The position numbers and the translations under genes are program-made. A DNA stretch of 64,000 nucleotides. Origin: Desulfosudis oleivorans. GTDB lineage: Bacteria > Desulfobacterota > Desulfobacteria > Desulfobacterales > SURF-7. The stretch is taken from the NCBI GenBank assembly GCA_020723325.1, contig DYJD01000027.1, forward strand, positions 15,697 to 79,696, given 5' to 3'. The notes below the pieces were generated by a model. It did no database searches and had not been told where the DNA came from. It saw only the letters and a list, made by a program, of their open reading frames with translations. Positions 5,298-34,366 of the stretch are shown piece by piece (the first letter of the stretch is position 1; each line of letters starts with the position of its first letter).

Positions 5298-5307
5298 TTC
5301 TGCCCTT

Positions 5308-8337: not shown

Positions 8338-8357
8338 GCTGGACGATCCCCTAATAA

Positions 8358-20753: not shown

Positions 20754-20820
20754 GATAACCGAATCACCGGATAACCGGATAACCGGATAACCGGATAACC
20801 GGATAACCGGATAACCGAAA
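20754..20820 (+). repeat. Octamer tandem array (CCGGATAA)x6, iteron- or centromere-like
   Basis: Six perfect copies at 20767-20814; same ATAACCG core as the repeats in the rep gene. Confidence 0.9.
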
Positions 20821-20829
20821 AGTAAACTC

Positions 20830-21759
20830 TTGGACACCTTAAGGATAGGGTTGTTTTGTTACAAGGTAACAAACCGCATACTAAAAAAAACAGCTTGGCG
20901 GAACTAAATGAGGCAATTCAGTTCTTCGAGGACAACAAAAAAATGAAAGGAAATTTTGGGCGTTGCGACGCAAACTACGCGCCGCTGCTCTGCAGGGGCC
21001 AGGTCCCGGCAAACTACGCCGGGACTGGCGGCAAACTGCGCCGCCACCCCTGCGGCCGCTAACGCCGTGGCAGCATCTCCCTCCGAACCATTAACTTGGA
21101 CGTTGTTTTGCTAAGCTCCGGTCCAAGAACCTGGAAAACAATTCGGATGAAATCACTATTTTGAAAAGCCCTCCAATATGTCCATAAAACAGGGATGAAT
21201 TCCGGCAAAACCAACCGCCAAAAGGAACAGCTTCTTTTGGCAATTGGCTTTGCTATTCAGAATTCATTGAGTAGGTTGCTGGGACTGAATAAGGTATTCT
21301 GTCTGAATTTTTTTACTTCCCTTCTTAAGGGCGAAAGGGAAGTAAAAAATATTCATGTTTGATTTATTAAAGACTTCAAAACGCAAGGCGTTTAATCCTT
21401 CATTGCTTCGCTACAAGGTAGGAAATCTATATCGTTGTTTGTGGTAGTAATATCGCGCAAAGTTTGGATTAATAATGAATTAATTCATGATATTATGAAT
21501 ATTTAGCCGGCAATAAGTAATTGAATTTTTTGATAAAAATAAATGATAATTATTTTATAACTAATTGTAATTATTATTAAAAATATCTTAAATAATTTAT
21601 AAAAATAGTGATTATTTGCTTGACATATAATTACTAGTTAGCTATATTGTAATCAAAAAGACGGGAAACAAGAAGTAAAAAACCCGCCTCCTGGGCAAAC
21701 AGGAAAGCGGGTCAAGATTCCCCTTCAACCACTTCAAAGCCAAAAGGAGAATGACTATG
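20830..21759 (+). repeat. Leading-region expression module A
   Basis: Shares the palindrome, the triple hairpin (20959-21066), the AT-rich block and the promoter with modules B and C, and the UTR with B; middle part differs. Confidence 0.9.
21620..21648 (+). promoter_or_regulatory. Sigma70 promoter (module A)
   Basis: TTGACA-N17-TATATT with an ACTAGT-centred imperfect palindrome in the spacer. Confidence 0.85.
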
Positions 21760-22572
21760 TTTAGACCAAACCGTAACCGCCTGTCAAGCTATTTGCCACT
21801 GACCAACCAAGATATCCTTGATGCCGCCCCCTCTGTCGGTGCTGTATCGCCTCATGCCGAAGTATCCGACCGTTACCAAATGATCCCCACCATTGCCATC
21901 GTTGACATGATGAGAAAAGAAGGCTGGCAACCCATGCAGGTTTCTGAAGTAAGAGCCAAGGAAGAGGGGAGAAGGGGCTTTCAAAAACACCTTATCCGGT
22001 TTCAGCATAATGATTTGATTTTGGGTGATGAGGCCATTGACGCTGTTTTGGTAAATTCCCATGACCGCTCTTGCGCCTATCAGTTCTTTACCGGGGTTTA
22101 CCGGTTTATCTGCTCAAATGGTATGATTGTCGGCGATACCTTTGAAAGAATATCGATTCGCCACATGAACTTCCAGCCGGAGGAAGTCATTGAAGCAAGC
22201 TATAAAATTCTGGATGATGCACCGGCGATCGGTGAAAAAATCAAAGAAATGAAATCGATTGCCTTGACCGATGCAGAAAAGGCCGCCTATGCCGGCGCTG
22301 CCCTTCAATTGGTGTATGACGAGACGGACCAGGCGCCCTACAGGGCCGAAAAACTCCTATCCCCCAAACGCTCATATGACCGCGATCCCGACCTCTGGAA
22401 AACCTTTAATTCGGTGCAGGAAAATATCATGAAAGGTGGAATCCGCGGCTTGAATCCAAAAACCCGAAAACCAGTGACCACCCGACAAATCACCTCTATT
22501 GATAAAAATGTCAAACTGAATCGCGCCCTCTGGACCCTAACTGAAAAAATGATGGAGCTGAAACGCGGTTAA
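21751..22572 (+). CDS. DUF932/DUF945 family protein (YubP/YafZ-like, typical of leading regions)
   Basis: PLT...APSV...SDRYQMIPT...EGWQP...KHLIRF...NSHD...G.YRFICSNGMIVG...DLWKTFNSVQENIMKGG...LNRALW. Confidence 0.88.
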   Translation: MTMFRPNRNRLSSYLPLTNQDILDAAPSVGAVSPHAEVSDRYQMIPTIAIVDMMRKEGWQPMQVSEVRAKEEGRRGFQKHLIRFQHNDLILGDEAIDAVLVNSHDRSCAYQFFTGVYRFICSNGMIVGDTFERISIRHMNFQPEEVIEASYKILDDAPAIGEKIKEMKSIALTDAEKAAYAGAALQLVYDETDQAPYRAEKLLSPKRSYDRDPDLWKTFNSVQENIMKGGIRGLNPKTRKPVTTRQITSIDKNVKLNRALWTLTEKMMELKRG

Positions 22573-22580
22573 TTAAAGGA

Positions 22581-22602
22581 TTGCCCCTCTACGGAGGGGC
22601 AA
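22581..22602 (+). other. Stable RNA hairpin with a cUACGg tetraloop between co-oriented genes
   Basis: TTGCCCCTC-TACG-GAGGGGCAA; no U-tract. Confidence 0.5.
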
Positions 22603-22620
22603 CAAAAACGAGGTGATGAA

Positions 22621-22938
22621 ATGTCAAATCAAATAGCCCAAAACATACTTCTGCAACTTGGCGGAAATCGATTTAAGACAATGACAGGCGCAAAAAATTT
22701 TCTGGCAGGGGATAGCTATCTACTCTTTACAATCCCCAAATGCAACAAAGGCGGGATCAACTTGGTGATGATTTCGTTGAATGGTCTAGACCTTTACGAC
22801 ATGGCTTTTTTAAGGGTCAAAAAAAAACGTAATTCTATTGAATATGATCAACAGGTCATCGCTGAAGTTAAAAATATTTACTTCGATATGTTGCAAACAA
22901 TTTTTACCGAACAGACCGGGCTTTATACTCACTTATGA
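22621..22938 (+). CDS. Hypothetical protein of a phage/plasmid-type family
   Basis: GAGGTG RBS; IAQNILLQLGGNRFKTMTGAKNF...DLYDM.F...FTEQTGLYTHL. Confidence 0.75.
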   Translation: MSNQIAQNILLQLGGNRFKTMTGAKNFLAGDSYLLFTIPKCNKGGINLVMISLNGLDLYDMAFLRVKKKRNSIEYDQQVIAEVKNIYFDMLQTIFTEQTGLYTHL

Positions 22939-22947
22939 GGTGACGAT

Positions 22948-23217
22948 ATGATGTTTGAATTGGATGAAATTTTACATTGTGTAAGCCTGCTGAATGACAA
23001 CAATGAAGGAAGGGCGGAATACAATTTTATTAGAGCAATAAGCCTGCCGCGTGTTGGAAATAAAGGAGTAGTGACCCTTGATCGAGTCGGCGAAGCGACT
23101 AAGACCATCTGTCAAATGACACGAATATCAAAGGACCCTGAATGCTGGGAAGTAGAAGGAGGAAACGACTTTTTCAGAAGGCTTTTTTATGAACGCATAC
23201 AGGCGGTAAAGCGATAG
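22948..23217 (+). CDS. Hypothetical protein
   Basis: GAGGTG RBS; followed by the hairpin AAGCCCCT-N6-AGGGGCTT. Confidence 0.6.
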   Translation: MMFELDEILHCVSLLNDNNEGRAEYNFIRAISLPRVGNKGVVTLDRVGEATKTICQMTRISKDPECWEVEGGNDFFRRLFYERIQAVKR

Positions 23218-23373
23218 TAAAAAAAGAAGCCCCTTGTTGGAGGGGCTTTACTCTAATAAAATGGGAGAATCTATCATGGGAATTGGAGCTTATAATCGGG
23301 GTTCAAACGGTATCCGTCAAAGAATTAATTAGGTTATGGTCAATTTTAATACCGCGATTTGACTATTTTTTTA

Positions 23374-23402
23374 TTGACTTTTATACTAAATTTTAGTATA
23401 GA
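23374..23402 (+). promoter_or_regulatory. TA promoter with autoregulatory operator
   Basis: TTGACT plus the palindrome TATACTAAA-T-TTTAGTATA. Confidence 0.65.
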
Positions 23403-23408
23403 TTCCCT

Positions 23409-23687
23409 ATGAACTGGAAAATTACTGTAACAAAAAAAGTTCAAAAACAAATAGATTGCCTCCCAGAGCAGGCAAGAAAAAACCTTGCCCTTTTGGCAAA
23501 AGAAATGGAAAGCTATGGGCCGATTAGGGGTAACTGGCCTAATTACAGCCCATTAAAAGGTAACCGACACCATTGCCATATAAAAAAGGGCAGGCCAACC
23601 TATGTTGCAGTATGGGAAATAATAAATAAAGAAATTAGAATAATTGAGGTCATTTATGCAGGTACACACGAAAAAGCGCCGTACTGA
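23409..23687 (+). CDS. RelE/HigB-like toxin
   Basis: 92 aa; WKITVTKKVQKQI..LP...NWPNYSPL...HHCH...YAGTHEKAPY; upstream of an XRE gene. Confidence 0.8.
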   Translation: MNWKITVTKKVQKQIDCLPEQARKNLALLAKEMESYGPIRGNWPNYSPLKGNRHHCHIKKGRPTYVAVWEIINKEIRIIEVIYAGTHEKAPY

Positions 23688-24006
23688 AAGAATTGAATTG
23701 CGATTTGTCGGACCAAGCGACAAGCAGCAAAATGCTATAGATCTTTTAAAGCCACTTGGCTTTTTGAGTGTTACGGATTCAATCCCTTGGCGGGAAGCAT
23801 TCCCTTATTCTAAAGAGGCCCTGCCGGGCGTCTGTCTATCAGGAGCAAGAAGCAAGGAAGGTATTACTCAGCAAGAGCTGTCAAGGCTAACCGGGATTCC
23901 TCAACGGCACATTTCCGAGATGGAACACGGAAAACGGCCTATCGGAAAGGAAAATGCAAAGAAGCTGGGGAAGGCCCTTAATGTCGGTTATAAGGTTTTT
24001 TTATAG
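23656..24006 (+). CDS. HigA-like XRE antitoxin
   Basis: ARSKEGITQQELSRLTGIPQRHISEMEHGKRPIGKENAKKLGKAL. Confidence 0.82.
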   Translation: MQVHTKKRRTERIELRFVGPSDKQQNAIDLLKPLGFLSVTDSIPWREAFPYSKEALPGVCLSGARSKEGITQQELSRLTGIPQRHISEMEHGKRPIGKENAKKLGKALNVGYKVFL

Positions 24007-24058
24007 CCATCATATTTATAGCCCAGAATTGCTGGTTTTCAGCAAAGCCAAGGCAGCG

Positions 24059-24317
24059 TGCAGCCATTTTGCGCTCCGCCTCCCTAGCCTAAACCTTTGC
24101 AATAAGACCTCGACTTTGAATCTAACAGAGCGCAAATTTGCCGGCACGGCCCACCCTGCAAAGGGTGTTTTTATTCCATACAAGAATCTATCGCCTACCA
24201 GGCATTAAGCCAATTTGTCGTTCCCACGCCCCGGCGGGCGCAAAATGGCTGCAACAAGGTGTTCCATCAAAAAATTTAAATTCGCTGCGCTAACAATCTT
24301 GCGCGAGGACGCGCTTT
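24059..24317. repeat. Long stem-loop element copy 1 (Frpo/ssi-like)
   Basis: TGCAGCCATTTTGCGC...GCGCAAAATGGCTGCA arms (24059-24253); homologous to 33592-33850. Confidence 0.75.
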
Positions 24318-24434
24318 GTATTCCTTCCCGCCCTCCACCCATATAAACCCGGCCGGATACGGCCGGGTCCCTTCTTCGAAGTTTAAATAAATATATGGAC
24401 ACCTGGGCACCTCAGTAATTAAATAACAGGGAAG

Positions 24435-24680
24435 GCAGATAACCGAATCCTCTATCCGAATAACCGAATACCCGGATAATCGGATAACCGAATCACCGAA
24501 TAACCGAGCAGATAACCGAATAACCGAATCACCGGATAACCGAGCAGATAGCCGAATAACCGAATACCCGGATAACCGGATAACCGAATCGCCGGATATC
24601 CAAAACACCTATAAACAATTCAATTTACCGCCCATAGATTATACAAAAAAACCATCCGACCTTAACAAAGCACAATATGA
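24435..24680 (+). repeat. Inverted copy of 19239-19484 (internal rep iteron segment)
   Basis: Reverse complement matches over 246 bp; identical shadow-ORF translations. Confidence 0.9.
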
Positions 24681-25532
24681 TCGGACAAGCGACGGGTGCT
24701 TGATCTTGTTACAAGGTAACTAATATTTCAGAAGCACCAGACAACAATATAGGAACAGCATAGGGACAGTATGTTGAAACTCATGCCGGCAAAGCCAGGG
24801 GCTCTTACATGAAAACTGATTTTGGGCGTTGCGGCGCAAACTACGCGCCGCCGCTCTGCAGGGGCCAGGTCCCGGCAAACTACGCCGGGACCTGGCGGCA
24901 AACTGCGCCGCCACCCCTGCGGCCGCTAACGCCGTGGGACCGCCTCCCTTCCGAACCATTACCTTGGACGTTGTTTTGCTAAGCTCCGAACCAAGGACCT
25001 GGAAAATAATACAGCAGCAGGCTTTCAGCACTGCATTAGCTCGGGCTTACAGCACCGAGCATTATTGCTTGCGTTCCGCAATGCGTAATGAAAGCCACCA
25101 ACGCCCAGAAACCCAGGTGGGGCCTCCATTGCCGTGCAAGATTGTAATGCCAAAGACCACAGGCCATTAATTTTTAGGTAAGCCGATAGTCACGTTCTTT
25201 ATCATTTCAAAGGATATTGATTACAGTTTGACTACTTCAGCTCGGCTGTTAAAGAGAAAAAATAACCCGCAAAGGCCATTCCAGGGTAGCAAGGCAGCTA
25301 TTGGGGGATAAGCCGCTTTAGGGCTATATAGGAAAGTTATAGTTATTTTTATATGGTATATTTTTGGATATAGTTATTGCATTAATAATGAATTGATTCA
25401 TTATATTATGAATATTTGGCCAACAATAAGTAATTGGATTTTTTGATAAAAATAAATTATAGTTATTTTATAACTAATTGTAAATATTATTAAAAACCGC
25501 TTAAAATATTAATAAAAATAATACTTTTTTGC

Positions 25533-25561
25533 TTGACATATAATTACTAGTTAGCTATATT
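25533..25561 (+). promoter_or_regulatory. Sigma70 promoter (module B)
   Basis: Identical TTGACATATAATTACTAGTTAGCTATATT. Confidence 0.85.
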
Positions 25562-25663
25562 GAAATCAAAAAGACGGGAAACAAGAAGTAAAAAACCCGC
25601 CTCCTGGGCAAACAGGAAAGCGGGTCAAGATTCCCCTTCAACCACTTCAAAGCCAAAAGGAGA

Positions 25664-27526
25664 ATGACTATGCCTACCACTTCTGAAAAAAATTTACAAG
25701 CCGAATACACCGCAACCTATAGCCCGGAAGATAACAAACTTCGGCTCTACTCTTTGCACCGGCTGGACACAGAAACCTATTCCCGCCTTAAGGCCGCCGG
25801 TTTCAAATGGGCTCCAAAACAACAGCTTTTTGTTGCCCCCATGTGGACCCCGGGGCGTTACGATTTACTTGTTGAATTGTGCGGAGAAGTCGGAGACGAA
25901 GATACAAGCTTAGTTGAACGGCAACAGGAAAGGGCGGACCGGTTTGAAGGGTACAGCGAAAACCGTTTGCAAGATGCCCATGCCGCTAAAGCGGCCGTGG
26001 ATGCCATTGCCGACCATATACCCTTTGGGCAGCCGATCCTTGTTGGACATCATAGCGAAAGACACGCCCGGAAACATGCCCAAAAAATCGAAAACGGCAT
26101 GCGCAAGGCGGTTAAAATGTGGGAAACCTCCCAATATTGGAAAGACCGGGCCGTTGGGGCCTTGTGTCATGCGCAATACAAGGAAAGTCCCAGAGTCAGG
26201 GCCAACCGGATCAGAACAATCGAGGCCGATAGGAGAAAGGCCACGAGAGAGAGGGACGAATTCCGGGCACGCTTCAATTCTTGGTTAAATCCGACAGTCC
26301 CATTTAATCTATCGTCGGCCATGGCGATCACAGCAGGCAGCTATTCCGCTTTCAAATTCCCGCTGGACCGATATCCGCGAGAAGCACCGAAAAGCCAATA
26401 TGAGGGCGAAATGTCTTTATATAGGGCATTGGAAGAGGGGATTATCACGCCACGACAGGCCCGCAACCTGCATGTCCCCGTATTGGTCAGGACAATAAAA
26501 AACCGTGAACGCTGGATAGCCCACTATGAAAACCGCCTCATTTATGAGCGGGCCATGTTGGAAGAGCAGGGGGCAAGCGATTTACTTAAGCCCAAAGAAA
26601 GGCCTAAACAATTACCCCTTTTGAATTATCGCCAACCCGAAGGGTTTATGATTGAAAACATTTACCGCAAAGGGGAATCCAGTCTTTACCCACAGGTGGA
26701 AATGACAAAGGCGGAATTTGCCAAAATTTACCAGGATTACAAGGGTACTCGAATTGTAGAAAATTCCCACAGGGTACGGTTTGCAGTGCTACAAAACCAT
26801 AAAAGAGCGATCATTTTTTTAACTGACAGCAAAGTACATGAAAAGCCGGAGCCGGTTGTTAAGCCGGAACCAAAACCCCTGGCAATTGCGATGCAGATTA
26901 ATTCAAGCCCGGATTACCCAACAAGAGAGCGGACCCAGTTTGACGATATGAAAAACACCTTGAAAAATGGTGGTGTTCAAATCGTATCCGCTCCGCAGCT
27001 TTTCCCCACACCGCCGGAACTGGCAAGGCGTATGGCCAGGGAGGCGGGGATACTAGCAGGAAGGCGGATTCTTGAACCATCCGCAGGGACCGGAAACCTT
27101 GTATCGGCAGCAATAAATGCCGCTTCTGGGGCTGATTGCTGCCGAATTGTCGCCGTTGAAATAAATGCCGCCCTTGTCGGCGAATTGCGAAATATGAGAG
27201 ACAAAACGCTTTATGCAAATGGCCACAACTTCGAAATTAAACATGCCGATTTTCTGGACTGCAACGGCGACCTTTTGAAATTTGACCGGATCATCATGAA
27301 CCCACCCTTTGAAAACGGGGCCGATATAAAACATATCAAGCATGCCATGAGCTTTCTCAAGGAAGGGGGCCGCCTGGTGGCACTTTGCGCGAACGGGCCA
27401 CGCCAACGGGATCAACTGAAACCGATCGCCGAAGAAAGTGGCGGATTCTGGGAGGACCTCCCGGCCGGAACTTTCAAAAATGCCGGCACCAATGTAAACA
27501 CGGCCCTTTTGGTCATTGAAAATTAA
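25664..27526 (+). CDS. DUF3560 domain protein fused to a SAM-dependent (probably N6-adenine DNA) methyltransferase
   Basis: N-terminal ATYSPEDNKLRLY...IPFGQPILVGHHSERHAR; C-terminal LFPTP..ILEPSAGTG...IIMNPPF. Confidence 0.85.
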   Translation: MTMPTTSEKNLQAEYTATYSPEDNKLRLYSLHRLDTETYSRLKAAGFKWAPKQQLFVAPMWTPGRYDLLVELCGEVGDEDTSLVERQQERADRFEGYSENRLQDAHAAKAAVDAIADHIPFGQPILVGHHSERHARKHAQKIENGMRKAVKMWETSQYWKDRAVGALCHAQYKESPRVRANRIRTIEADRRKATRERDEFRARFNSWLNPTVPFNLSSAMAITAGSYSAFKFPLDRYPREAPKSQYEGEMSLYRALEEGIITPRQARNLHVPVLVRTIKNRERWIAHYENRLIYERAMLEEQGASDLLKPKERPKQLPLLNYRQPEGFMIENIYRKGESSLYPQVEMTKAEFAKIYQDYKGTRIVENSHRVRFAVLQNHKRAIIFLTDSKVHEKPEPVVKPEPKPLAIAMQINSSPDYPTRERTQFDDMKNTLKNGGVQIVSAPQLFPTPPELARRMAREAGILAGRRILEPSAGTGNLVSAAINAASGADCCRIVAVEINAALVGELRNMRDKTLYANGHNFEIKHADFLDCNGDLLKFDRIIMNPPFENGADIKHIKHAMSFLKEGGRLVALCANGPRQRDQLKPIAEESGGFWEDLPAGTFKNAGTNVNTALLVIEN

Positions 27527-27565
27527 GTTAAGGCCCTGCAGCGTTCTGCTCTGCAGGGCAAATCA

Positions 27566-27913
27566 ATGGAGGAAAACATGGAAACAACGCTTGACCAGAT
27601 TAAAAGATATTCAGGTGGAAAAGATATCGCGGTGCTTGCCCCGCTTAATCATGATATCAATGATATATCGGTCTTTCTGCATGGGGTGCCCTTGCCTGAT
27701 AGTATTAGTAGGCAACCGTATACAAAAGACCCTGACCTCATGCCGATTCTGCATGAAATAAATGCCGCAAATGAAGGCGTTTTCAAGCGCATAAACATTG
27801 AGGGAATCCGGAGAAAACTGTTATATCTGAAATTCTTACAGAGTGGCGGAGCTTCGATTCATTTGTATTTAATCGAACCGGCAAAAGGATTTGGGCCGGA
27901 ATTGGATGAATAA
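27566..27913 (+). CDS. Hypothetical protein
   Basis: GGAGG RBS before the internal ATG at 27578; co-oriented with neighbours. Confidence 0.6.
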   Translation: MEENMETTLDQIKRYSGGKDIAVLAPLNHDINDISVFLHGVPLPDSISRQPYTKDPDLMPILHEINAANEGVFKRINIEGIRRKLLYLKFLQSGGASIHLYLIEPAKGFGPELDE

Positions 27914-28165
27914 AAAAGAAAGCTCGCGACCTGGTGCAACGGCAAAGCGAGTCGAACCCCAAATTGATCGCAAAAGAAGGAAAACATAAAATGAATATCA
28001 CTACAGATAAAAGAAAGCCTAAAGGAACAATAAACCATAACCCAAAAGAAAAAAAAGTCAGCTTTTGAAGGCCTTGACGAATTACCCATGGGCTAATCGT
28101 TATTAGATACTTGAACTCTATGGCCCCGAGCCGAGACAGCCGAACAGTAAAGGAGAAATTTTGAA

Positions 28166-28330
28166 ATGAAAGCAAACGCGGAACATTTTTTTAAAGCCAT
28201 TGAACATTGCTTGAAGTGCAGGTTTACAAAGGCGCAGGCTATGATAATGAGCCGTGGATTTTCGAGAAGAGGGTTTATTGATGCCAGCGAAGGGTGCATG
28301 CATTACGCGCTGATGTTATTTGAAGGCTAA
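28166..28330 (+). CDS. Small hypothetical protein (54 aa, not in the ORF track)
   Basis: AAGGAG RBS; MKANAEHFFKAIEHCLKCRF...LFEG; followed by the hairpin ACCCGGCTC-N4-GAGCCGGGT. Confidence 0.5.
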   Translation: MKANAEHFFKAIEHCLKCRFTKAQAMIMSRGFSRRGFIDASEGCMHYALMLFEG

Positions 28331-28403
28331 CCTGGTTGCAAAACGTGAAATGAGCCCCAGCAAAATCAGAAACCATAAAACCCGGCTCGCTTGAGCCGGG
28401 TCA

Positions 28404-29428
28404 TCCCCGCCCACCCACCCAGAGGAACCCGGCCGTATCCGGCCGGGTTCCTTCTTTGCTCAAGCTTAATTAAAAATATGGACACCAAGACACCTGGATA
28501 CCTGGACACCTAAATTACCAAATAGCAGGGCTATCGGACAAGCGGCGGGAGTTTGATCTTGTTACAAGGTAACTAATATTTCAGGAGCAGCAGAGAACAA
28601 TATAGAAACAGCATAGGGACAGTATAGGTTGAAACTCATACCGGCAAAGCCAGGGGCTCTTACATGAAAACTGATTTTGGGCGTTGCGGCGCAAACTACG
28701 CGCCGCCGCTCTGCAGGGGCCAGGTCCCGGCAAACTACGCCGGGACTGGCGGCAAACTGCGCCGCCACCCCTGCGGCCGCTAACGCCGTGGCTGCATCTC
28801 CCTCTGTACCATCGCCTTGGACGTTGTTTTACTAAGCTCCGAAGCAAGGACCTGGAAAATAATACAGCAGCAGGTTTTCAGCACTGCATTAGTTCGGGCT
28901 TACAGCACCGCGCATTATTGCTTGCGTTCCGCAATGCGTAATGAAAGCCACCAACGCCCATAAACCCAGGTGGGGCCTCCATTGCCGTGCAAGATTGTAA
29001 TGCCAAAGACCACAGGCCATTAATTTTTAGGTAAGCCGATAGTCACGTTCTTTATCATTTCAAAGGATATTGATTACAGTTTGACTACTTCAGCTCGGCT
29101 GTTAAAGAGAAAAAATAACCCGCAAAGGCCATTCCAGGGTAGCAAGGCAGCTATTGGGGGATAAGCCGCTTTAGGGCTATATAGGAAAGTTATAGTTATT
29201 TTTATATGGTATATTTTTGGATATAGTTATTGCATTAATAATGAATCGATTCATTATATTATGAATATTTGGCCAACAATAAGTAATTGAATTTTTTGAT
29301 AAAAATAAATTATAGCTATTTTATAACCAATTGTAAATATTATTTAAAACGTCTTAAAATATTAATAAAAATAATGCTTTTTTGCTTGACATATAATTAC
29401 TAGTTAGCTATATTGTAATCAAAAAGAC
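28404..29428 (+). repeat. Leading-region expression module C
   Basis: CCCGGCCG hairpin, GGACACC octamers, palindrome, triple hairpin (28680-28787), AT-rich block, promoter. Confidence 0.92.
29386..29414 (+). promoter_or_regulatory. Sigma70 promoter (module C)
   Basis: Identical TTGACA-N17-TATATT. Confidence 0.85.
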
Positions 29429-29447
29429 AGGAGACAGGAGACAGGAA

Positions 29448-29753
29448 ATGAGAAAAAGACAAATGCAAACGTACTGCACACAAAATAATGGTGATTGTCG
29501 GACATGCGCACTAGTAAATCACGGCCGCGACTGCCGAAACAATCTGATTGCAAAACGTGAAGAGATTTGTGCATCATGTGGCCTGCCGGCGGATAATTGC
29601 AGGTGTGACAACCATATAGAAATTTTATCGAATTATTGCCAATGTGGAGAAGTGGTTTGGTGTTGTCCCGCGCATTCGCCAAATTATTATGCTTCTGATA
29701 GAGCTATTTATCTTGCTGCCCGTGCGAAAATAGCCGACCAAATACCTTTCTAA
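29448..29753 (+). CDS. Cys-rich, probably Zn-binding, hypothetical protein
   Basis: CTQNNGDCRTC..C, CASC, CRC, CQC, CC motifs; first gene after promoter C. Confidence 0.65.
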   Translation: MRKRQMQTYCTQNNGDCRTCALVNHGRDCRNNLIAKREEICASCGLPADNCRCDNHIEILSNYCQCGEVVWCCPAHSPNYYASDRAIYLAARAKIADQIPF

Positions 29754-29768
29754 AAATGAGAGGGCAAC

Positions 29769-30140
29769 ATGGAAATTAAATTCAGCCAAAAATACACCTT
29801 AACAAGGGAACATCCTGCATCACATTATGGTGCTGGAGTTCTGCTCGATACCGAAACCGGTATTGTTTACGGCCCGAGTGATGTTTTGCCGCCTAATCCA
29901 TTGGGCAGTAAAATGCTTGGCGTTGAAATTAAAGTAGAAGCTGGATATTTTATCGTTTCGAATGTATGCCATCCAACTGTTGCCTCTTTAAATCATCGAT
30001 ACTCGGGAGATCAATTGGGTTTCATACGCAGGTATCTTTCCCAAGATCCGTCCGGGCGCTTTGAATTGCCCGATAATGAAACCCTCACTCAATATTGGCG
30101 AGAGGCGGAAGAAAGAAACGACGCGGAAAACAAGCTGTGA
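29769..30140 (+). CDS. Hypothetical protein
   Basis: GAGAGG RBS; operonic. Confidence 0.65.
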   Translation: MEIKFSQKYTLTREHPASHYGAGVLLDTETGIVYGPSDVLPPNPLGSKMLGVEIKVEAGYFIVSNVCHPTVASLNHRYSGDQLGFIRRYLSQDPSGRFELPDNETLTQYWREAEERNDAENKL

Positions 30141-30210
30141 AAAATGAACCGCAGCTCGAAAGTGCGCTGAAGAAACTTAAAATTTTACTTCCGGCCCGAA
30201 GGAGATTCTT

Positions 30211-30741
30211 ATGCAGAAATTGAATCATATTCATCGGGGTGTAGTACGTGCGGCGATGAACGCCGATGGTTGGAAATTTGTTGGAGAATTCAATCGATAT
30301 CCAGAAGAAAACGGCAGCTATGTTTTTGTTTCATCTGATTTTGATCCGAATGATTTGTACTCAGAAATCATGGTTTGTACGCTGTATGAAGATTATGGCG
30401 ACATCGAGATCGGAGCAGTTCATGAGTTCAACAATGAATTCATTTATACGATTGTCTTTTTTCCCGGTTATAGTTTACTAGAAAAATTGACGGCCCGATA
30501 TCCGCTGAGGGTTCCCCTGGGGCCTGAAAACGGCCCGGCTCAGCGATACATGGAAGAATACCAACGAGAGATTTTAAACGGCATGCGCGGATTCCCCTCG
30601 CAAGATGAATGGATTCATATTCAACAAAAATGTATCGAGGCTGCTGAAAGCAATAATTTTGAAAGATCCCAAAATTTATTTTTACCCCCTGGTATGACGT
30701 TACCAGCGCAGGAATTGAAAAATGAGCAACTATATTTCTGA
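30211..30741 (+). CDS. Hypothetical protein
   Basis: AAGGAG RBS. Confidence 0.65.
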   Translation: MQKLNHIHRGVVRAAMNADGWKFVGEFNRYPEENGSYVFVSSDFDPNDLYSEIMVCTLYEDYGDIEIGAVHEFNNEFIYTIVFFPGYSLLEKLTARYPLRVPLGPENGPAQRYMEEYQREILNGMRGFPSQDEWIHIQQKCIEAAESNNFERSQNLFLPPGMTLPAQELKNEQLYF

Positions 30742-30964
30742 CTGGCCCAATAACACGGAATCGGCCCGCAAATGGGCTGATGGCTGGGTGAAGAACGCGG
30801 AAGAAACCGGAAATATATTTCCAGCTCAATGTATAAACAAGTGCGCCAAAGCCTTTAAAAAGCGTTTTTGTACAAACGGGATATGGGTACCTGGGGCTGA
30901 AGCTGTTTTTGAAATGCTACAGGACAAGGCCTGGGCCGCGGCACAAAAGGCGGACGAATACTAG
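30722..30964 (+). CDS. Hypothetical protein
   Basis: Overlaps the end of the previous gene; plausible helical protein. Confidence 0.55.
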   Translation: MSNYISDWPNNTESARKWADGWVKNAEETGNIFPAQCINKCAKAFKKRFCTNGIWVPGAEAVFEMLQDKAWAAAQKADEY

Positions 30965-31293
30965 TTGTAGTATATTACTATGAAATGATTTGATATTGGT
31001 CTTTCTTCTGAAAAATTAGGCCATCAAGCTCGGTTTCGAAGAATTAGAATAACAACGATTGGACAAAACGACAGCAATGTGATTTGTTACAAAGTAACAA
31101 ACTCCTCATGACAAAAAACAATTTAGAAGAATGAATATGGGTTCAAATGCGGCTGCTGTTAAGATGCAAGCAGAGACAGCCTGGGAAAACCGAAAGAATT
31201 TTATTTGTCAGGCGCTTGAGCTTAAAGATCCGATTCTGATTGTCGCCGGACCGACCGGCAGGCTATGGGATTGGATGCGAAAGGGGATTGCTG

Positions 31294-31482
31294 ATGAGAA
31301 GAAATAATTTCTGCGAATCAATAACTGTCTATCGCTGTGCGGCGGCCGATGAGGACGAAATGAAAAAGTGTAATTTTTTTGAGTCTGCCGAAGATGGCGG
31401 GCATTGCGGAAATGCGATGGAGATTATTCCAGGCATGATAAGATGCCATTCAAAACGGGCGCAAAAGAATTCAATGGCGTGA
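31294..31482 (+). CDS. Small Cys-rich hypothetical protein
   Basis: AGGGGGA RBS before MRRNNFCES; five Cys residues. Confidence 0.45.
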   Translation: MRRNNFCESITVYRCAAADEDEMKKCNFFESAEDGGHCGNAMEIIPGMIRCHSKRAQKNSMA

Positions 31483-31501
31483 ATAAAAATAAGGGAAGAG
31501 C

Positions 31502-31735
31502 GTGATGGACCGATCAGTTTTTGAACAGAATATGAATTATGCGAAGACGATGCATTCGATCGGTGAACAGAGTGAATACTGGAATGGATACATGCGTGGT
31601 TTGCGCCGCCGATACCATGGAGAGAATTTTGGCACGGAAGAGGAGCACCAACTTTGGCTGACGGCCAATGGTGACGATACTCATGACCAGCGGTCAGCCG
31701 GATATAAAGTCTGTTATTTCGGCCCTTGGCGATAG
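31502..31735 (+). CDS. Hypothetical protein
   Basis: YWNGYMRGLRRRYHGENFGTEEEH; operonic. Confidence 0.6.
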   Translation: MMDRSVFEQNMNYAKTMHSIGEQSEYWNGYMRGLRRRYHGENFGTEEEHQLWLTANGDDTHDQRSAGYKVCYFGPWR

Positions 31736-31785
31736 GTCGATTTTCCGGTATTTCAACTCTGAAAAATGCAAAGGGCGGTCCCCCC

Positions 31786-32220
31786 ATGACGGATATAATT
31801 CACATTAAAAATAATGGGCAAGAAATTGTTGAAACAAATTATTACGATACGCCGAACGCCAGGGCGGGCTATTTTTATTTGAGCACGAACGCTGGCTGTT
31901 TTCGTTTATTGGTGCCGGATTCTCAATTATCGGTTTTGAGCGAATTGAGCACCGGCAGGGAAATAATTATTTCACGAGGTCCATGGCCTGAGCAGAGAAA
32001 GAAAGATGCTTTAGAATTGTTATTTGAAGATGACTCGGATAATCCTTTTTCGTTGCATATTTTACCAGAGCAGTGTGATCGATTGCCGGAAAAGAAGGAC
32101 GCAGGGAAAAGATGGTTGTTTTCCGTTTGGTCTCGAACCGGAAAACATTTTGAAGCCCCCTGTTATTATCGACAGGTTAAAAAATTGCCTTGGCTAAAGC
32201 CTTATACCGGTCAAAGGTAA
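31786..32220 (+). CDS. CcgAII-like plasmid protein
   Basis: NNGQEIVETNYYD...GYFYLS.NAG.FRLLVPD...IISRG...DALELLFED.S..PF.LHI..EQCDRL resembles IncN CcgAII (recalled, not searched). Confidence 0.6.
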   Translation: MTDIIHIKNNGQEIVETNYYDTPNARAGYFYLSTNAGCFRLLVPDSQLSVLSELSTGREIIISRGPWPEQRKKDALELLFEDDSDNPFSLHILPEQCDRLPEKKDAGKRWLFSVWSRTGKHFEAPCYYRQVKKLPWLKPYTGQR

Positions 32221-32229
32221 TTGTAAAAT

Positions 32230-32388
32230 GCGGCAACGGGGTAAAGATTTATTTGGTGCGGAGTTCGGTCTAGTGTCCCCGCGCTGGGGAATCTCAATAA
32301 TTCCCTAGAGCGGGGACACGGTGGGGCAGGTACAGCCTAAAAATTTGTTTTCGGGAGAGGCCCCGCGAAGCGGGAAAATTTTCTATCG
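32230..32388. repeat. Structured direct repeat copy 1 (ssi-like; long hairpin plus GCGAAGC mini-hairpin)
   Basis: GTGTCCCCGC...GCGGGGACAC and CCCGC-GAA-GCGGG; second copy 1137 bp downstream. Confidence 0.85.
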
Positions 32389-32422
32389 ATTTTTCAACAT
32401 TGTTCAAGATCGGCCAAGGGCT

Positions 32423-33331
32423 ATGATTTCCATATCGAATCTTTATTCCAAATTCCAAAAGCTCGGCCTTGTTGAGGCTGCGGTGAAAATCCAACCGCCG
32501 CAACACGCCGGAGGCTATATCCTGATAAAATCCGGTATGGATCATCATGCCCCAACTCTCGGGTTGCTCAACATTGCCACAAGTTTTGTTACCTGGTGGC
32601 AATGCCGTCAAAGAACAGTCTGGCGAATAACTCCACTGACAGCCGAGTACATCCGATCAGTGAATCTAACATTCCTGCCAGAAACATCTCCGCCTTCGTG
32701 GACCGGAAATGCCATTCTGATTGAATCCACCAGACCGGAAAAGCCCCTATTCGATGACGTCTTTTCCATGGCCTGCTATCGGATTCCGGATATGACCGGC
32801 CGCGATCGATATTTTTTTATTCTGCTTTCATATCCAGACGGGGTTATGGTTTTTTCCATTGCCACGGATCTTTTTAGGATCAATCAGAAAATGGCTGAGT
32901 CCGGAGAAATGTTCATGCCTGGATGGATTGATGACACCGGTCTGGATTTAGATAGGTCAGTTCCCCGGGAAAAAAAGCAAACGGCATACAACGCCATTCG
33001 ATTTGTTTTCGCCTTCAGTTATTATGTGGATTCTCCGGCCAGGATGATAATGACCATTGAACCCGGGCCGCCGGTTAAAAATGAGAGAGGGAAGGTCGTC
33101 AAGAAAGACGGACAACCAACCTCCCAGTGGCGGTATGTGACGGCCCAGATCGTCAAAAAGGCAGACCTACCGAAGGAAGAACGTCCCCTTGATAAATCAA
33201 ACCTATCTTTGGAGCCAGTCCTTGTTGTTCCCCATATTCGTCGGCGAGGCGATAAAATCATCATCGTAGATCAACATGATTCTCATCGGTGGAAAAATCC
33301 AGAAAAGATCGCATCTAAAATTTCGATATGA
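32423..33331 (+). CDS. Hypothetical protein (~302 aa) flanked by direct repeats
   Basis: Long ORF; first ATG after the repeat is at 32423; C-terminal PHIRRR. Confidence 0.75.
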   Translation: MISISNLYSKFQKLGLVEAAVKIQPPQHAGGYILIKSGMDHHAPTLGLLNIATSFVTWWQCRQRTVWRITPLTAEYIRSVNLTFLPETSPPSWTGNAILIESTRPEKPLFDDVFSMACYRIPDMTGRDRYFFILLSYPDGVMVFSIATDLFRINQKMAESGEMFMPGWIDDTGLDLDRSVPREKKQTAYNAIRFVFAFSYYVDSPARMIMTIEPGPPVKNERGKVVKKDGQPTSQWRYVTAQIVKKADLPKEERPLDKSNLSLEPVLVVPHIRRRGDKIIIVDQHDSHRWKNPEKIASKISI

Positions 33332-33366
33332 AGTATGGGTAAAAAATAGTTGCGTGCTTTCGGAAA

Positions 33367-33525
33367 GCGGCAAAGGTTTTATGAGTTATTTGGTGCGGAG
33401 TTCGGCCTAGTGTCCCCGCGCTGGGGAATCTCAATAATTCCATAGAGCGGGGACACGGGGGGGCAGGTACAGCCTAAAAATTTGCTTTTTGGGGAGGCCC
33501 CGCGAAGCGGGAAAATTTTCTATCG
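33367..33525. repeat. Structured direct repeat copy 2
   Basis: Highly similar to 32230-32388. Confidence 0.85.
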
Positions 33526-33591
33526 TTTTTTTGGCTTTGTTTAAGCTCAGCTTCGGCATTATCCTTAATTTTCAGTGATGCGTTTTATTGT

Positions 33592-33850
33592 TTGCAGCCA
33601 TTTTGCGCCCCGCCTCCCTGCCTAAACATTTGCAATAGAACCTCGGCTTTTAAATCTAGTAGATCGCGAACTCGCCGGCATGGCCCACCCTGCAAAGGCT
33701 GCCTTTATTCCATACAACAATCCTTCGCAAACCAGGCATTACAGCATTTATCGTTCCCACGCCCCGGCAGGCGCAAAATGGCTGCAACAGGGAGTTCCGT
33801 CTAAAATTTTGATTTCGCTGCGCTGGCTATTTTGCGCGGGGCCGCGCTTT
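33592..33850. repeat. Long stem-loop element copy 2 (Frpo/ssi-like)
   Basis: TTGCAGCCATTTTGCGCC...GGCGCAAAATGGCTGCAA (33592-33787). Confidence 0.75.
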
Positions 33851-34159
33851 TTACCCATTCACGGCCTCTGAAACTTTTTCAAGGTTATCCACAGGCTCGT
33901 TATTCGGTGTATCCTTATCATCCTCTATGATACCAAACAATTCTTTATCATGCTTTCGAGTTAAATACGGTTTTAGTAATTTAGCGAGTTCCTTTTCCCG
34001 TCCTTTATATTTTTGTAACAAGTATGCTCCGGCGAGGATCTTGCGCCTGGTATCGCGTTTTTCTTCTTCTTTTCGCTCTTTGGCTTTCATGTTTGCGATT
34101 TGGGCTTCCAACTGTTTTTTCTTTTCAAGTAGCTTATCTACCTTTGATTTTTCAGTCAT
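33851..34159 (-). CDS. Relaxosome accessory protein (Ti-type TraD/MobS-like)
   Basis: Coiled coil then ERKEEEKRDTRRKILAGA; divergent from the relaxase across oriT; GGAGA RBS. Confidence 0.78.
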   Translation of the reverse strand: MTEKSKVDKLLEKKKQLEAQIANMKAKERKEEEKRDTRRKILAGAYLLQKYKGREKELAKLLKPYLTRKHDKELFGIIEDDKDTPNNEPVDNLEKVSEAVNG

Positions 34160-34292
34160 ATTTTCTCCATGGAATGAGGTAACAAGATAGTATCGCGGAT
34201 AAAATACTTGACTTTGGGAAAAAAATCCACGAAAATTTAAAGCGAGGGTAAAGGGAAAAACAATCGGGTGCCGAGGCGACCCGAAGCAGAGC

Positions 34293-34324
34293 AAGGGCGC
34301 ACTTATAGGTTGCAAGCAACCCAT
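34293..34324 (-). other. oriT of the MOBQ (RSF1010/pTi) family
   Basis: Minus strand reads TATGGGTTGC-TT-GCAACCTATAAGTGCG^CCCTT: inverted repeat followed by the conserved TAAGTGCGCCCT nick motif. Confidence 0.9.
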
Positions 34325-34366
34325 ACTAACAGAATCGGCCATATCGGCCTACCATCTTGGATAAGA

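What the first reader, a model, noticed from the sequence alone, without database searches (positions are those of the whole stretch)
20830..33850. Leading region built as an array of repeated structured modules with interchangeable gene cassettes
Seen: three modules (A 20830-21759, B 24325-25672, C 28404-29428) share one order of parts: GGACACC octamer(s), TTGTTAC-N3-GTAAC palindrome, GC-rich triple hairpin, structured middle, AT-rich palindromic block, identical sigma70 promoter. Each heads a different gene set. Two more repeat families and a partial module near 31060-31135 subdivide the rest. All genes point toward oriT, so the transferred minus strand is their template. Known: leading regions carry ssDNA promoters and anti-defence genes, and IncN plasmids use CUP repeats. 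Inference: a CUP-like but much larger zygotic-induction regulon, whose direct repeats also allow cassette gain, loss and shuffling by recombination.
Basis: partly seen in the sequence, partly recalled or inferred. Interest (0 to 1): 0.85.

Follow-up and report, generated by a model that had tools for sequence, protein, structure and literature searches.

The report
Repeated leader modules in leading region
Three roughly 1-kb mosaic DNA repeats, each with the same strong promoter and a conserved three-hairpin fold, head three different gene sets in the part of a conjugative element that enters a new cell first; this looks like a new variant of a design already known from F-type and IncN plasmids.

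Summary
Three direct-repeat modules (A 20830-21759, B 24396-25672, C 28479-29447) share a TTGTTAC-N3-GTAAC palindrome, a 108-nt GC-rich three-hairpin cloverleaf with identical loops, an AT-rich block and an invariant TTGACA-17-TATATT promoter. Each heads a different plus-strand operon.

A perfect MOBQ oriT consensus lies on the minus strand at 34293-34311, upstream of a MobA/MobL relaxase. The minus strand is therefore the transferred strand, 34290 downwards is the leading region, and the genes use that strand as template.

The modules are mosaic. B shares its middle with C (351/355) and its 5'UTR plus start codon with A (109/109). That argues for exchange between copies.

The design is not new in kind. 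F and a Denitratisoma plasmid have dispersed repeats before homologous genes (DUF932; DUF3560-methylase), and IncN has CUP repeats. The sequence and the cloverleaf were found nowhere else that I searched.

An Frpo-type promoter hairpin, a LexA box and an active relaxase-linked primase were tested and not supported.

Function (zygotic induction; a single-strand signal) is inferred, not shown. Verdict: new variant of a known kind, moderate interest.

The parts
20830..21759 (+). Module A. TGGACACC 20831-20838; palindrome 20856-20872; cloverleaf core 20959-21066; A-type middle 21148-21459; AT block 21460-21619; promoter 21620-21648; 5'UTR up to the ATG at 21751.
24396..25672 (+). Module B. Octamers 24396-24411; inserted inverted copy of a par-operon ORF fragment 24435-24680; palindrome 24706-24720; cloverleaf core 24825-24933; B/C-type middle 25016-25370; AT block 25371-25532; promoter 25533-25561; 5'UTR identical to A's, up to the ATG at 25664.
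28479..29447 (+). Module C. Octamers 28479-28510; palindrome 28559-28573; cloverleaf core 28680-28787; B/C-type middle 28869-29223; AT block 29224-29385; promoter 29386-29414; its own short 5'UTR up to the ATG at 29448.
31060..31130 (+). Partial module: TTGGACA... plus the palindrome TTGTTACAAAGTAACAA directly before ORF 31131-31307. It resembles only the left edge of module A.
24055..24335 (-). Repeat family E, copy 1 (after operon A). It has a 23-bp long-range stem and folds better on the minus strand.
33590..33868 (-). Repeat family E, copy 2 (between the last plus-strand gene and the MobC-like gene); 83% identical to copy 1.
32227..32414 (+). Repeat family D6, copy 1 (before the 336-aa ORF). 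Contains a 20-bp imperfect hairpin and folds better on the plus strand.
33364..33551 (+). Repeat family D6, copy 2 (after the 336-aa ORF); 88% identical to copy 1.
21751..24006 (+). Operon A: DUF932 (21751-22572), then ORFs of 105, 89 and 92 aa, then an HTH_3 protein (23644-24006).
25664..28330 (+). Operon B: DUF3560-methyltransferase (25664-27526), then ORFs of 115 aa and 54 aa.
29448..30964 (+). Operon C: four ORFs of 101, 123, 176 and 80 aa with no family match.
31131..33331 (+). oriT-proximal plus-strand ORFs, including the 336-aa ORF 32321-33331 (282 aa from the database start). It belongs to a rare family. AcrVA2-like is an unverified lead.
33851..34162 (-). Small basic accessory gene divergent from the relaxase. 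MobC-like by position; the similarity itself is recalled, not tested.
34293..34325 (-). oriT. The minus strand reads AACCTATAAGTGCGCCCTT (34311 to 34293), a zero-mismatch match to the MOBQ consensus, preceded 5' by the inverted repeat GGTTGC-TT-GCAACC.
34367..37555 (+). Relaxase: MobA/MobL domain, RecD-like helicase, and a C-terminal DUF3991/Toprim-like domain that lacks the conserved acidic residues.

Best explanation
This is the leading (first-transferred) region of a conjugative element with an F-type mating apparatus and a MOBQ (RSF1010/Ti-type) relaxase and oriT. It is organised as successive same-direction operons. Three of them are each headed by a 0.9-1.0 kb mosaic leader module.

Shown:
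- Each module supplies the same near-consensus sigma-70 promoter. In A and B it also supplies the same 5'UTR, ribosome site and first three codons.
- About 550-650 nt upstream of the promoter each module has a strongly conserved 108-nt GC-rich cloverleaf: an outer stem enclosing three hairpins with identical 7-nt loops.
- The transferred strand is the template of all these genes.
- The copies have exchanged segments.

Inferred:
- The modules form one regulon that gives coordinated early expression of establishment and anti-defence genes in a new host. The strong duplex promoters would be kept down in established cells by element-encoded repressors acting at the repeated palindromes. This is CUP/ArdK-like zygotic induction.
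- The cloverleaf acts on the incoming single strand as an initiation or pausing signal for complementary-strand synthesis. A primer laid there would be extended toward oriT, across the promoter and its operon, and would make them duplex early. I put this last step at about 0.3.
- The repeats also serve as substrates for homologous exchange, which re-sorts leaders and gene sets.
For: Polarity:
- One zero-mismatch match to the MOBQ oriT consensus lies on the minus strand at 34293-34311 (consensus from a PMC3832669 passage).
- It sits upstream of a MobA/MobL relaxase (3.8e-72).
- F-type T4SS genes and a coupling protein lie on the far side.

Gene content:
- The DUF932 and DUF3560-methyltransferase homologues sit in the leading region of F or in the matching region of Denitratisoma pI.

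Modules:
- The promoter has 0 of 29 variable columns. The cloverleaf core has 3 of 109, against 21 of 93 in its flanks (Fisher p 1.3e-5) and 27 of 162 in the AT block.

Structure:
- Cloverleaf on the minus strand: -43.7 kcal/mol against -32.3 +/- 3.2, with 0 of 200 shuffles as good.
- Whole-module transferred-strand folds: z -8.5 for A and -4.8 for B, 20 shuffles each.
- The one stem substitution (20968, G in B and C, A in A) keeps a G.T pair only on the minus strand.

Mosaic:
- Middle: B-C 351/355, A-B 133/370.
- 5'UTR plus ATG: A-B 109/109, A-C 33/109.

Precedent:
- F has two roughly 600-nt dispersed repeats, one before ssb and one before the orf+DUF932 pair.
- Denitratisoma pI has repeats with one shared promoter before the ssb, methylase and DUF3560 operons.
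- IncN has the CUP regulon, with CUP-mediated rearrangements (PMC5371602 passages).
- Frpo acts both as a promoter and as a primer site (PMC7690428 passage).
Against: - No relative of the module was found, so there is no covariation test: PLSDB near and distant searches; 60 relatives; 400 genomes of the order; capped metagenome and IMG/VR pattern scans.
- There are no expression data.
- No repressor or operator was tested.
- The palindrome lies about 760 nt from the main promoter and also occurs in unrelated repeats on other contigs.
- The promoter is an ordinary duplex promoter. The AT block around it folds no better than shuffles.
- The cloverleaf folds almost equally well on both strands.
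- The relaxase's Toprim-like domain lacks the conserved Glu and DxD, so no element-borne primase is evident.
- High conservation of core and promoter could come from gene conversion rather than selection. The three copies are not independent.
- Only one run holds the sequence, and it may be the source sample.
Confidence: 0.55

Rival explanations
1. Purely duplex, CUP-like regulon. The modules are repeated promoter regions with operator sites. The cloverleaf and the other hairpins are insulators, terminator remnants or protein-binding sites on double-stranded DNA, with no role on the transferred single strand.
For: - A canonical promoter, 11 of 12 to consensus, is identical in the three copies.
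- Operator-like palindromes are present.
- The same palindrome occurs twice directly before the 128-aa/DnaB operon of the same element.
- Xre-type and two-HTH regulators are encoded nearby.
- The IncN precedent applies.
- The cloverleaf is nearly strand-symmetric.
Against: - This reading does not explain why a 108-nt GC-rich fold 550-650 nt upstream of the promoter is the most conserved part apart from the promoter itself.
- In both comparison plasmids (F, Denitratisoma pI) the repeated leaders fold into long hairpins on the transferred strand.
Confidence: 0.25
2. Frpo-type single-stranded promoter. On the transferred strand the promoter pairs with a mirror-image copy about 50 nt upstream (minus-strand TTTACA-17-TATAAT at 25484-25456 and 29337-29309). 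That would rebuild a duplex promoter before complementary-strand synthesis.
For: - Back-to-back promoter-like sites share one centre in B and C, both at 11 of 12.
- In module A the minimum-energy fold of the minus strand pairs the -10 and part of the -35 with the upstream arm.
- The block is AT-rich, like an UP element.
Against: - The mirror arms agree at only 16, 19 and 19 of 29 positions. Other registers in the same block score 17-18.
- B and C fold differently, with energies of -10 to -18 kcal/mol, close to shuffles.
- There is no BLAST similarity to the two F repeats, whereas the Denitratisoma modules do share 33 nt at 91% with them.
- F's repeat forms one long GC-rich hairpin, unlike this block.
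Confidence: 0.1
3. Each module encodes a minus-strand non-coding RNA. It would start at the minus-strand promoter in the AT block, run through the middle and the cloverleaf, and end at the minus-strand terminators at the module's left edge. Alternatively the module carries a plus-strand leader RNA that starts near the palindrome.
For: - Minus-strand promoter-like sites in B and C.
- A minus-strand terminator at 28402-28379 and a similar hairpin at 24368-24339 (read).
- A slight minus-strand folding preference for the cloverleaf in A and B, with RNA parameters.
Against: - The minus-strand promoter is weaker in A (9 of 12).
- AT-rich DNA gives such matches easily: 33 sites found against 27.9 +/- 5.4 expected.
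- There is no Rfam match and no RNA run.
- C shows no minus-strand preference.
Confidence: 0.07
4. The repeats are recent segmental duplications with no function of their own beyond carrying a promoter, or partly an assembly artefact of a metagenome bin.
For: - The modules were found in one genome and one run only.
- B carries a 246-nt perfect inverted copy of a gene fragment, which could be a mis-join.
- B and C are 95.7% identical.
Against: - The depth of the unique and the two-copy segments fits the assembly.
- Divergence is strongly uneven along the module.
- The repeats end exactly at the start codons of unrelated genes.
- Analogous layouts exist in F and in Denitratisoma pI.
Confidence: 0.03

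Closest known systems
Frpo / ssi repeats of IncF and IncI1 leading regions (single-stranded DNA promoters and primer sites)
   Same: - Dispersed direct repeats of several hundred nt in the leading region.
- Each sits before a different set of genes that use the transferred strand as template and point toward oriT.
- The transferred strand is strongly structured.
- In F, one copy precedes the orf+DUF932 pair (PMC11541004 and PMC7690428 passages).
   Different: - No sequence similarity to the F copies.
- The fold is a compact three-hairpin cloverleaf plus separate hairpins, not one long hairpin of about 300 nt.
- The promoter hexamers form a canonical duplex promoter 550-650 nt away from the fold.
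- A stem that would rebuild the promoter is not supported.
[quoted passage not shown]
   Same: - Several same-orientation operons.
- Each has a conserved repeat at its 5' end that carries a promoter.
- Rearrangements occur by recombination between the repeats (PMC5371602 and PMC6289460 passages).
- Here the copies are mosaic.
   Different: - No DNA similarity to anything in PLSDB.
- ArdK and its 13-nt site were not looked for.
- The candidate operators here are different palindromes and are untested.
- These modules carry a large structured GC-rich part.
Repeated leaders of Denitratisoma oestradiolicum plasmid pI (NZ_LR778302.1), seen here; I know of no description
   Same: - Conjugative, with an F-type mating apparatus.
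- DUF932 (45% identical) and DUF3560-methyltransferase (47-52%) homologues.
- Its ssb and DUF3560 operons are preceded by the same repeat of at least 750 nt.
- Three operons share one promoter, TTGACG-16/17-TAGAAT.
- Two-part layout: a structured GC-rich region followed by a duplex promoter.
   Different: - MOBF, not MOBQ.
- The repeats share 33 nt at 91% with the F repeats and form a long hairpin.
- The operator-like palindrome overlaps the -35.
- No similarity to the window's modules.
G4-type single-strand initiation signals (three adjacent stem-loops recognised by primase on SSB-coated DNA); recalled, no paper read
   Same: About 110-130 nt with three adjacent hairpins, on the strand that must be copied.
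   Different: Nothing beyond the shape was compared. Priming is untested.
RSF1010/R1162 MobA with its linked primase and ssiA/ssiB (MOBQ). The oriT consensus comes from a PMC3832669 passage; the primase biology is recalled
   Same: - The oriT nick-region consensus is matched at every specified position.
- The relaxase gene is divergent from a small accessory gene.
- The relaxase carries an extra C-terminal domain of primase-type (Toprim) ancestry.
   Different: - The C-terminal domain is DUF3991/Toprim-like, not the RSF1010 type.
- It has Asp where 9 of 9 aligned homologues have Glu, and G-H-G in place of their DxD.
- A RecD-like helicase lies between the relaxase and this domain.

Membership tests
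Leading region of a MOBQ conjugative element | oriT nick-region consensus NWACCNNTAAGTGCGCCCTYNN next to the relaxase gene | tested here: met
   One match with 0 mismatches at 34293-34311 on the minus strand; 0.01 expected. The consensus comes from a PMC3832669 passage.
Leading region of a MOBQ conjugative element | MobA/MobL-type relaxase | tested here: met
   PF03389 at 3.8e-72. The best plasmid matches are Ti-type TraA at 41-47% identity.
Leading region of a MOBQ conjugative element | The nick and the direction of transfer are demonstrated | not testable with these tools
   Polarity follows from the rule that the relaxase stays on the 5' end and transfer runs 5' to 3' (established knowledge).
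Frpo / ssi single-stranded DNA promoter | Sequence similarity to known Frpo/ssi elements | tested here: not met
   No BLAST hit between the window modules and the two F repeats at word size 7, E 0.01. Only F was compared. The Frpo list in the supplement of PMC11541004 could not be seen.
Frpo / ssi single-stranded DNA promoter | A long stem-loop on the transferred strand that puts the -35 and -10 boxes in duplex form | tested here: inconclusive
   Mirror arms agree at 16, 19 and 19 of 29 positions, barely above other registers. The minimum-energy fold pairs the -10 only in A. Block energies are close to shuffles.
Frpo / ssi single-stranded DNA promoter | Placed before leading-region genes that use the transferred strand as template, in several copies | tested here: met
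Frpo / ssi single-stranded DNA promoter | RNA polymerase starts RNA on the single strand | not testable with these tools
   Needs in vitro transcription or transconjugant RNA.
CUP-controlled regulon (IncN) | Same-orientation operons, each with a conserved upstream repeat that holds a promoter | tested here: met
CUP-controlled regulon (IncN) | ArdK repressor and its binding site in every repeat | not tested
   No ArdK search was run. The candidate regulators (HTH_3 23644-24006; two-HTH protein 17149-18144; 128-aa gene on C10) are untested.
CUP-controlled regulon (IncN) | Sequence similarity to CUP | tested here: not met
   No match in 72,556 plasmid records, either by megablast of 20700-33900 or by blastn of module B.
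Relaxase-linked primase (RSF1010 type of arrangement) | Primase-type catalytic domain with its acidic residues intact, fused to the relaxase | tested here: not met
   The C-terminal 303 aa has 679 homologues. 10 of 10 scanned carry DUF3991 + Toprim_2. The window's copy has D for the Glu kept in 9 of 9 aligned homologues, and G-H-G for their DxD.
G4-type ssi | Three adjacent stem-loops on the strand to be copied (definition recalled) | tested here: met
   Cloverleaf fold on the minus strand, 0 of 200 shuffles as stable. This shows shape only.
G4-type ssi | Primase-dependent priming at the site | not testable with these tools
   Needs an ssi rescue assay.

The most novel reading that the evidence does not exclude
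The GC-rich cloverleaf (three hairpins with identical loops inside an outer stem) is a new class of signal that works on the incoming transferred strand. It would recruit a host primase or polymerase, or stall complementary-strand synthesis, and it would be coupled in one portable leader to an ordinary duplex promoter. Each module would then time the single-to-double-strand conversion and the expression of its own operon. The E repeats, which fold specifically on the minus strand, would be a second such signal.
Probability: 0.2. Interest if true: 0.7.

Novelty: new variant of a known kind. Interest (0 to 1): 0.45.

Why it matters
Work since 2023 places the leading region at the centre of plasmid establishment and anti-defence. 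Almost all mechanistic knowledge, however, comes from the Frpo elements of enterobacterial F and I plasmids and from the IncN CUP regulon.

Here the same organising idea appears in an environmental element with a MOBQ relaxase: dispersed repeated leaders in front of different gene sets, all using the transferred strand as template. The sequence is unrelated and the fold is different.

If the cloverleaf proves to be active on single-stranded DNA, it would widen the known repertoire of such signals. It would also give a search model for leading regions where Frpo similarity searches find nothing.

The mosaic copies also show, within a single molecule, how leaders and gene sets can be re-sorted.

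Tried and rejected
1. LexA box. The palindrome contains TTAC-N3-GTAA, which I recalled as a LexA box of some bacteria. The genome's lexA (TIGR00498, 171.6 bits) has no such site in the 250 nt upstream of it. Dropped.

2. Hairpin-loop motif elsewhere.
IMG/VR returned 18.
- By eye most are tandem repeats or coding matches.
- BLAST of the leading region against the held loci found no module match. This run preceded the IMG/VR scan, so it covered the 120 metagenome loci but not the 18 IMG/VR loci.
- 9 of 138 loci have two or more motifs with stems of 5 bp or more.
- Of 10 neighbouring ORFs, 2 had Pfam hits: RepA_N beside 27-bp iterons, and FecR. No link was found.

3. Rfam: only two chance-level miRNA matches.

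4. Relatives of the element.
- Module A against 60 relatives gave only 28-93 nt AT-rich hits, in 8 of the 60.
- The loop pattern was found in 0 of 400 other genomes of the order.
- The DUF3560-methylase was found in 0 of 250 other genomes of the phylum at E 1e-60.
- DUF932 in genome contigs gave only Legionella genes at 37-42% identity.

5. Relaxase-linked primase: homology yes, catalytic residues no. No PDB match by sequence.

6. The 336-aa ORF as an anti-CRISPR.
- Its atlas neighbours carry AcrVA2-like on 29-38% of members, but the recognition value is low.
- Pfam, NCBIfam and PHROGs give nothing.
- The PDB hits are summed weak polyubiquitin matches.
- There are 5 homologues.
- The model has pLDDT 50.4, too poor for a fold search, so none was run.

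7. RNA evidence: no RNA holder is listed.

8. Reads: the run is kept as contigs only. No deletion joint was seen. The one 'opposite strands' joint (20400 to 24456) is explained by the inverted array copy.

9. The palindrome as a regulator's own operator. The 128-aa gene behind two palindromes has no paralogue beside the other sites. The sites on other contigs lie in a different repeated element.

Supplements of papers were not opened.

Full report
WHAT IS THERE

The three modules are real direct repeats (alignment; self-BLAST).
- B and C are 95.7% identical over 909 nt (24680-25586 / 28533-29439). Their similarity begins at the terminator hairpins at 24327 / 28406.
- A shares two blocks with them: 20953-21142 (about 93%) and 21464-21759 (93% to B).

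From left to right each module has:
- one to four TGGAYACC octamers;
- the palindrome TTGTTAC-AAG-GTAAC;
- a GC-rich three-hairpin region;
- a middle part;
- an AT-rich block with short palindromes;
- TTGACA-17-TATATT.

The palindrome occurs at 4 sites in the window, with none expected. The loop motif GCAAACTRCGC occurs exactly 9 times, three per module and nowhere else in the window. No shuffle out of 100 reaches the total count of 12, which includes 3 one-mismatch hits. The octamers are a weak feature.

A fourth, partial copy (octamer-like word plus palindrome) lies at 31060-31130, directly before a small ORF. Two further repeat families subdivide the rest: E (24059-24335 / 33593-33868, 83%) and D6 (32227-32414 / 33364-33551, 88%).

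CONTEXT AND POLARITY

On the minus strand to the left lie F-type mating-pair genes (TraN, TraG, TraH, TraC, TraB/TrbI, TraK). Further left on the contig lie TraF, a coupling protein and a DnaB-like helicase. Next come a two-HTH regulator, and then ParA with a 480-aa ORF.

To the right of the repeats lie a small minus-strand accessory gene (33851-34162) and a 1062-aa relaxase (34367-37555). The relaxase has MobA/MobL and RecD-like helicase domains.

The published MOBQ oriT consensus (passage of PMC3832669) is matched once in the window with no mismatch. The match is on the minus strand at 34293-34311, just 3' of a short inverted repeat.

The relaxase stays on the 5' end at the nick and transfer runs 5' to 3' (established knowledge). 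It follows that the minus strand is the transferred strand and that DNA from about 34290 downwards enters first. All plus-strand genes from 21751 to 33331 therefore use the transferred strand as template. The MobC-like gene is the exception.

Gene content fits a leading region.
- The DUF932 protein (2.5e-40) is 35% identical to the DUF932 gene in F's leading region.
- The DUF3560-methyltransferase fusion matches at least 5000 plasmid records, 3865 of them conjugative.
- The other ORFs have no family, or only PHROGs families of unknown function.

ANATOMY AND CONSERVATION

Divergence along the module is very uneven.

The promoter has 0 of 29 variable columns. The cloverleaf core (108 nt in A, 20959-21066) has 3 of 109. 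Its flanks have 21 of 93 (Fisher p 1.3e-5) and the AT block has 27 of 162. Because the copies are only three and can convert each other, this shows homogenisation or selection of these two parts. It cannot say which.

The copies are mosaic.
- The middle is 99% identical in B and C (351/355) and unrelated in A (133/370).
- The 109 nt from just after the -10 through the ribosome site and ATG-ACT-ATG are identical in A and B (109/109) and unrelated in C.
- B is thus a recombinant of an A-like and a C-like leader.
- The repeat ends exactly where unrelated genes begin.

B also carries an insertion that C lacks. Positions 24435-24680 are a perfect inverted copy of 19239-19484. That stretch lies inside the 480-aa ORF after parA and is read there as peptide repeats through 8-nt DNA arrays. 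A mis-join at this exact repeat cannot be excluded from contig data.

STRUCTURE

The cloverleaf consists of an outer 6-bp stem, one hairpin, and an inner 8-9-bp stem enclosing two more hairpins, with 7-9-bp GC stems.
- Minus-strand DNA fold: -43.7 kcal/mol against -32.3 +/- 3.2, with 0 of 200 shuffles as stable.
- It folds nearly as well on the plus strand (differences of 0.8 to 3.1 kcal/mol).
- The only substitution in a stem keeps a G.T pair on the minus strand and gives A.C on the plus strand. This is a single data point.

Whole modules fold well as transferred strand: z -8.5 for A and -4.8 for B, with 20 shuffles each.

With a rough control of 8 mononucleotide shuffles:
- the A middle is strongly structured and the B/C middle weakly;
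- the AT block folds no better than shuffles;
- E folds better on the minus strand (by 6-8.5 kcal/mol with DNA parameters, 16-21 with RNA parameters);
- D6 folds better on the plus strand (by 5-6 and 17-18).

The two E copies keep a fully conserved 23-bp long-range stem although their interior has diverged.

MECHANISMS TESTED

(a) Frpo-type promoter hairpin. B and C have a minus-strand promoter-like site that mirrors the plus-strand promoter about one centre. On the transferred strand this could rebuild a duplex promoter. However, the arms agree at only 16, 19 and 19 of 29 positions, barely above other registers in this AT-rich block. The minimum-energy folds differ between copies. Not supported, not excluded.

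(b) Relaxase-linked primase. The C-terminal 303 aa has 679 homologues. All 10 scanned carry DUF3991 plus Toprim_2, and 2 of them are fused to relaxases. The window's copy has Asp where 9 of 9 aligned homologues have Glu, and G-H-G instead of their DxD. An element-borne primase is therefore not evident.

(c) LexA control of the palindrome: no such site before lexA.

(d) Known RNA families: none.

(e) The palindrome itself. It occurs twice directly before the 128-aa/DnaB operon of the same element and in a different repeated element on other contigs. It therefore behaves like an operator of a regulator used at several loci. The regulator is unknown.

COMPARISON WITH KNOWN SYSTEMS

In F, fetched as a control, the leading genes also point to oriT. 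Two roughly 600-nt dispersed repeats (77-95% identical) precede ssb and the orf+DUF932 pair. Their transferred strand forms one long hairpin with z -9.3.

Denitratisoma oestradiolicum plasmid pI carries the closest DUF3560-methylase in PLSDB.
- It has the same repeat of at least 750 nt before its ssb and DUF3560 operons.
- Three operons share the promoter TTGACG-16/17-TAGAAT, with an overlapping palindrome.
- It shares 33 nt at 91% with the F repeats.

IncN plasmids have the CUP-controlled regulon. It comprises same-orientation operons, each with a CUP repeat holding an ArdK site and a promoter, and it shows deletions and an inversion attributed to CUP-CUP recombination (passages of PMC5371602 and PMC6289460).

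From passages of PMC11541004: 13,089 Frpo-like promoters in 6,006 elements. From one section of bioRxiv 10.64898/2026.01.09.698686: a single-stranded promoter of F also stalls complementary-strand synthesis. From a passage of PMC7690428: Frpo serves as promoter and as primer site.

The organising principle is therefore known. The window's modules are unrelated in sequence to these and differ in fold.

OCCURRENCE

No DNA match was found in:
- 72,556 plasmid records;
- 60 relatives, where only short AT-rich hits appeared in 8;
- 400 other genomes of the order, searched by loop pattern.

The methylase has no close relative in 250 genomes of the phylum.

One sequencing run, from a subsurface metagenome, holds the stretch. 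It may be the source sample. Its contigs have depths that fit one copy of the A middle and two copies of the B/C middle.

READING

Shown:
- a leading region with three mosaic leader repeats;
- an invariant strong promoter;
- a conserved cloverleaf;
- genes that use the transferred strand as template;
- past exchange between copies.

Inferred:
- repressor-controlled zygotic induction, by analogy with CUP/ArdK and other plasmid regulons;
- a role of the cloverleaf, and perhaps of E, on the single strand. The arguments are its position (a primer laid there would be extended across the promoter and its operon), its conservation, and the precedent of Frpo/ssi.

I rate the regulon reading as likely and the single-strand role as about 0.3. 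The finding is a new variant of a known kind. It is interesting mainly as a non-enterobacterial, non-Frpo example and as a candidate new single-strand element.

Noticed in passing
window 18275-19717 (-), 20753-20821, 24435-24680: The 480-aa ORF after parA is read straight through arrays of 8-nt DNA repeats (GGATAACC / GAATAACC types), giving NRITESPD-like peptide repeats. The variant 8-mers are those that avoid in-frame TAA. A further array of seven GGATAACC lies upstream of parA. A 246-nt perfect inverted copy of the ORF's array sits in module B. Such arrays occur only on this contig. They are candidates for centromere or regulator sites embedded in a gene.
   Followed up: partly
L161 (G000:C10) 5932-7965, left of the window: A 578-aa ORF with a weak Cas12f1-like TNB domain match (E 2e-5). 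Downstream of it lie three copies of a roughly 39-nt repeat (two of them identical) at 5932, 6096 and 6167, and two copies of the TTGTTAC-AAG-GTAACAA palindrome. This could be a mini CRISPR array or a TnpB guide region on the conjugative element.
   Followed up: no
window 36644-37552 (+): The relaxase ends in a DUF3991/Toprim-like domain. Its conserved Glu is replaced by Asp and its DxD by G-H-G. It is probably a catalytically dead domain kept for another role.
   Followed up: yes
window 32321-33331 (+): The plus-strand ORF nearest to oriT belongs to a rare family: 5 homologues at 38-52% identity in the large protein collection. Its language-model neighbours are clusters partly annotated AcrVA2-like. 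The structure model was too poor to test this.
   Followed up: partly
window 17644-17847 and 17929-18132: The two-HTH regulator gene contains an internal 204-nt tandem-like duplication (90% identical) covering its HTH units.
   Followed up: no
G000 contigs C5, C49, C78, C87, C89, C99 (sites listed): The same palindrome, TGTTAC-N3-GTAACA, sits next to a terminator-like hairpin in a different repeated element of 200-300 nt (80-89% identical), often near contig ends. It may be an operator shared by several mobile elements of this genome.
   Followed up: partly
L182 (NZ_LR778302.1) 3576-3702, 4913-5680, 8116-8880: Denitratisoma oestradiolicum plasmid pI has repeated leaders before three operons: hyp+cytosine methylase, ssb+DUF932, and DUF3560-methylase. 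All three share one promoter and the palindrome AACTATTGAC-GG-TCAATAGTT. The leaders have a short match to the F repeats.
   Followed up: partly
window 21683-21706 and 25596-25619: The 5'UTR shared by modules A and B contains a hairpin that reads as an intrinsic terminator on the minus strand (stem followed by TTTTTT). It would stop antisense transcription from entering the promoter region.
   Followed up: no
window 24055-24335 / 33590-33868 and 32227-32414 / 33364-33551: The two smaller repeat families have opposite strand preferences in folding. E folds better on the minus strand and D6 on the plus strand. This suggests different modes of action: transferred strand or minus-strand RNA for E, mRNA for D6.
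   Followed up: partly
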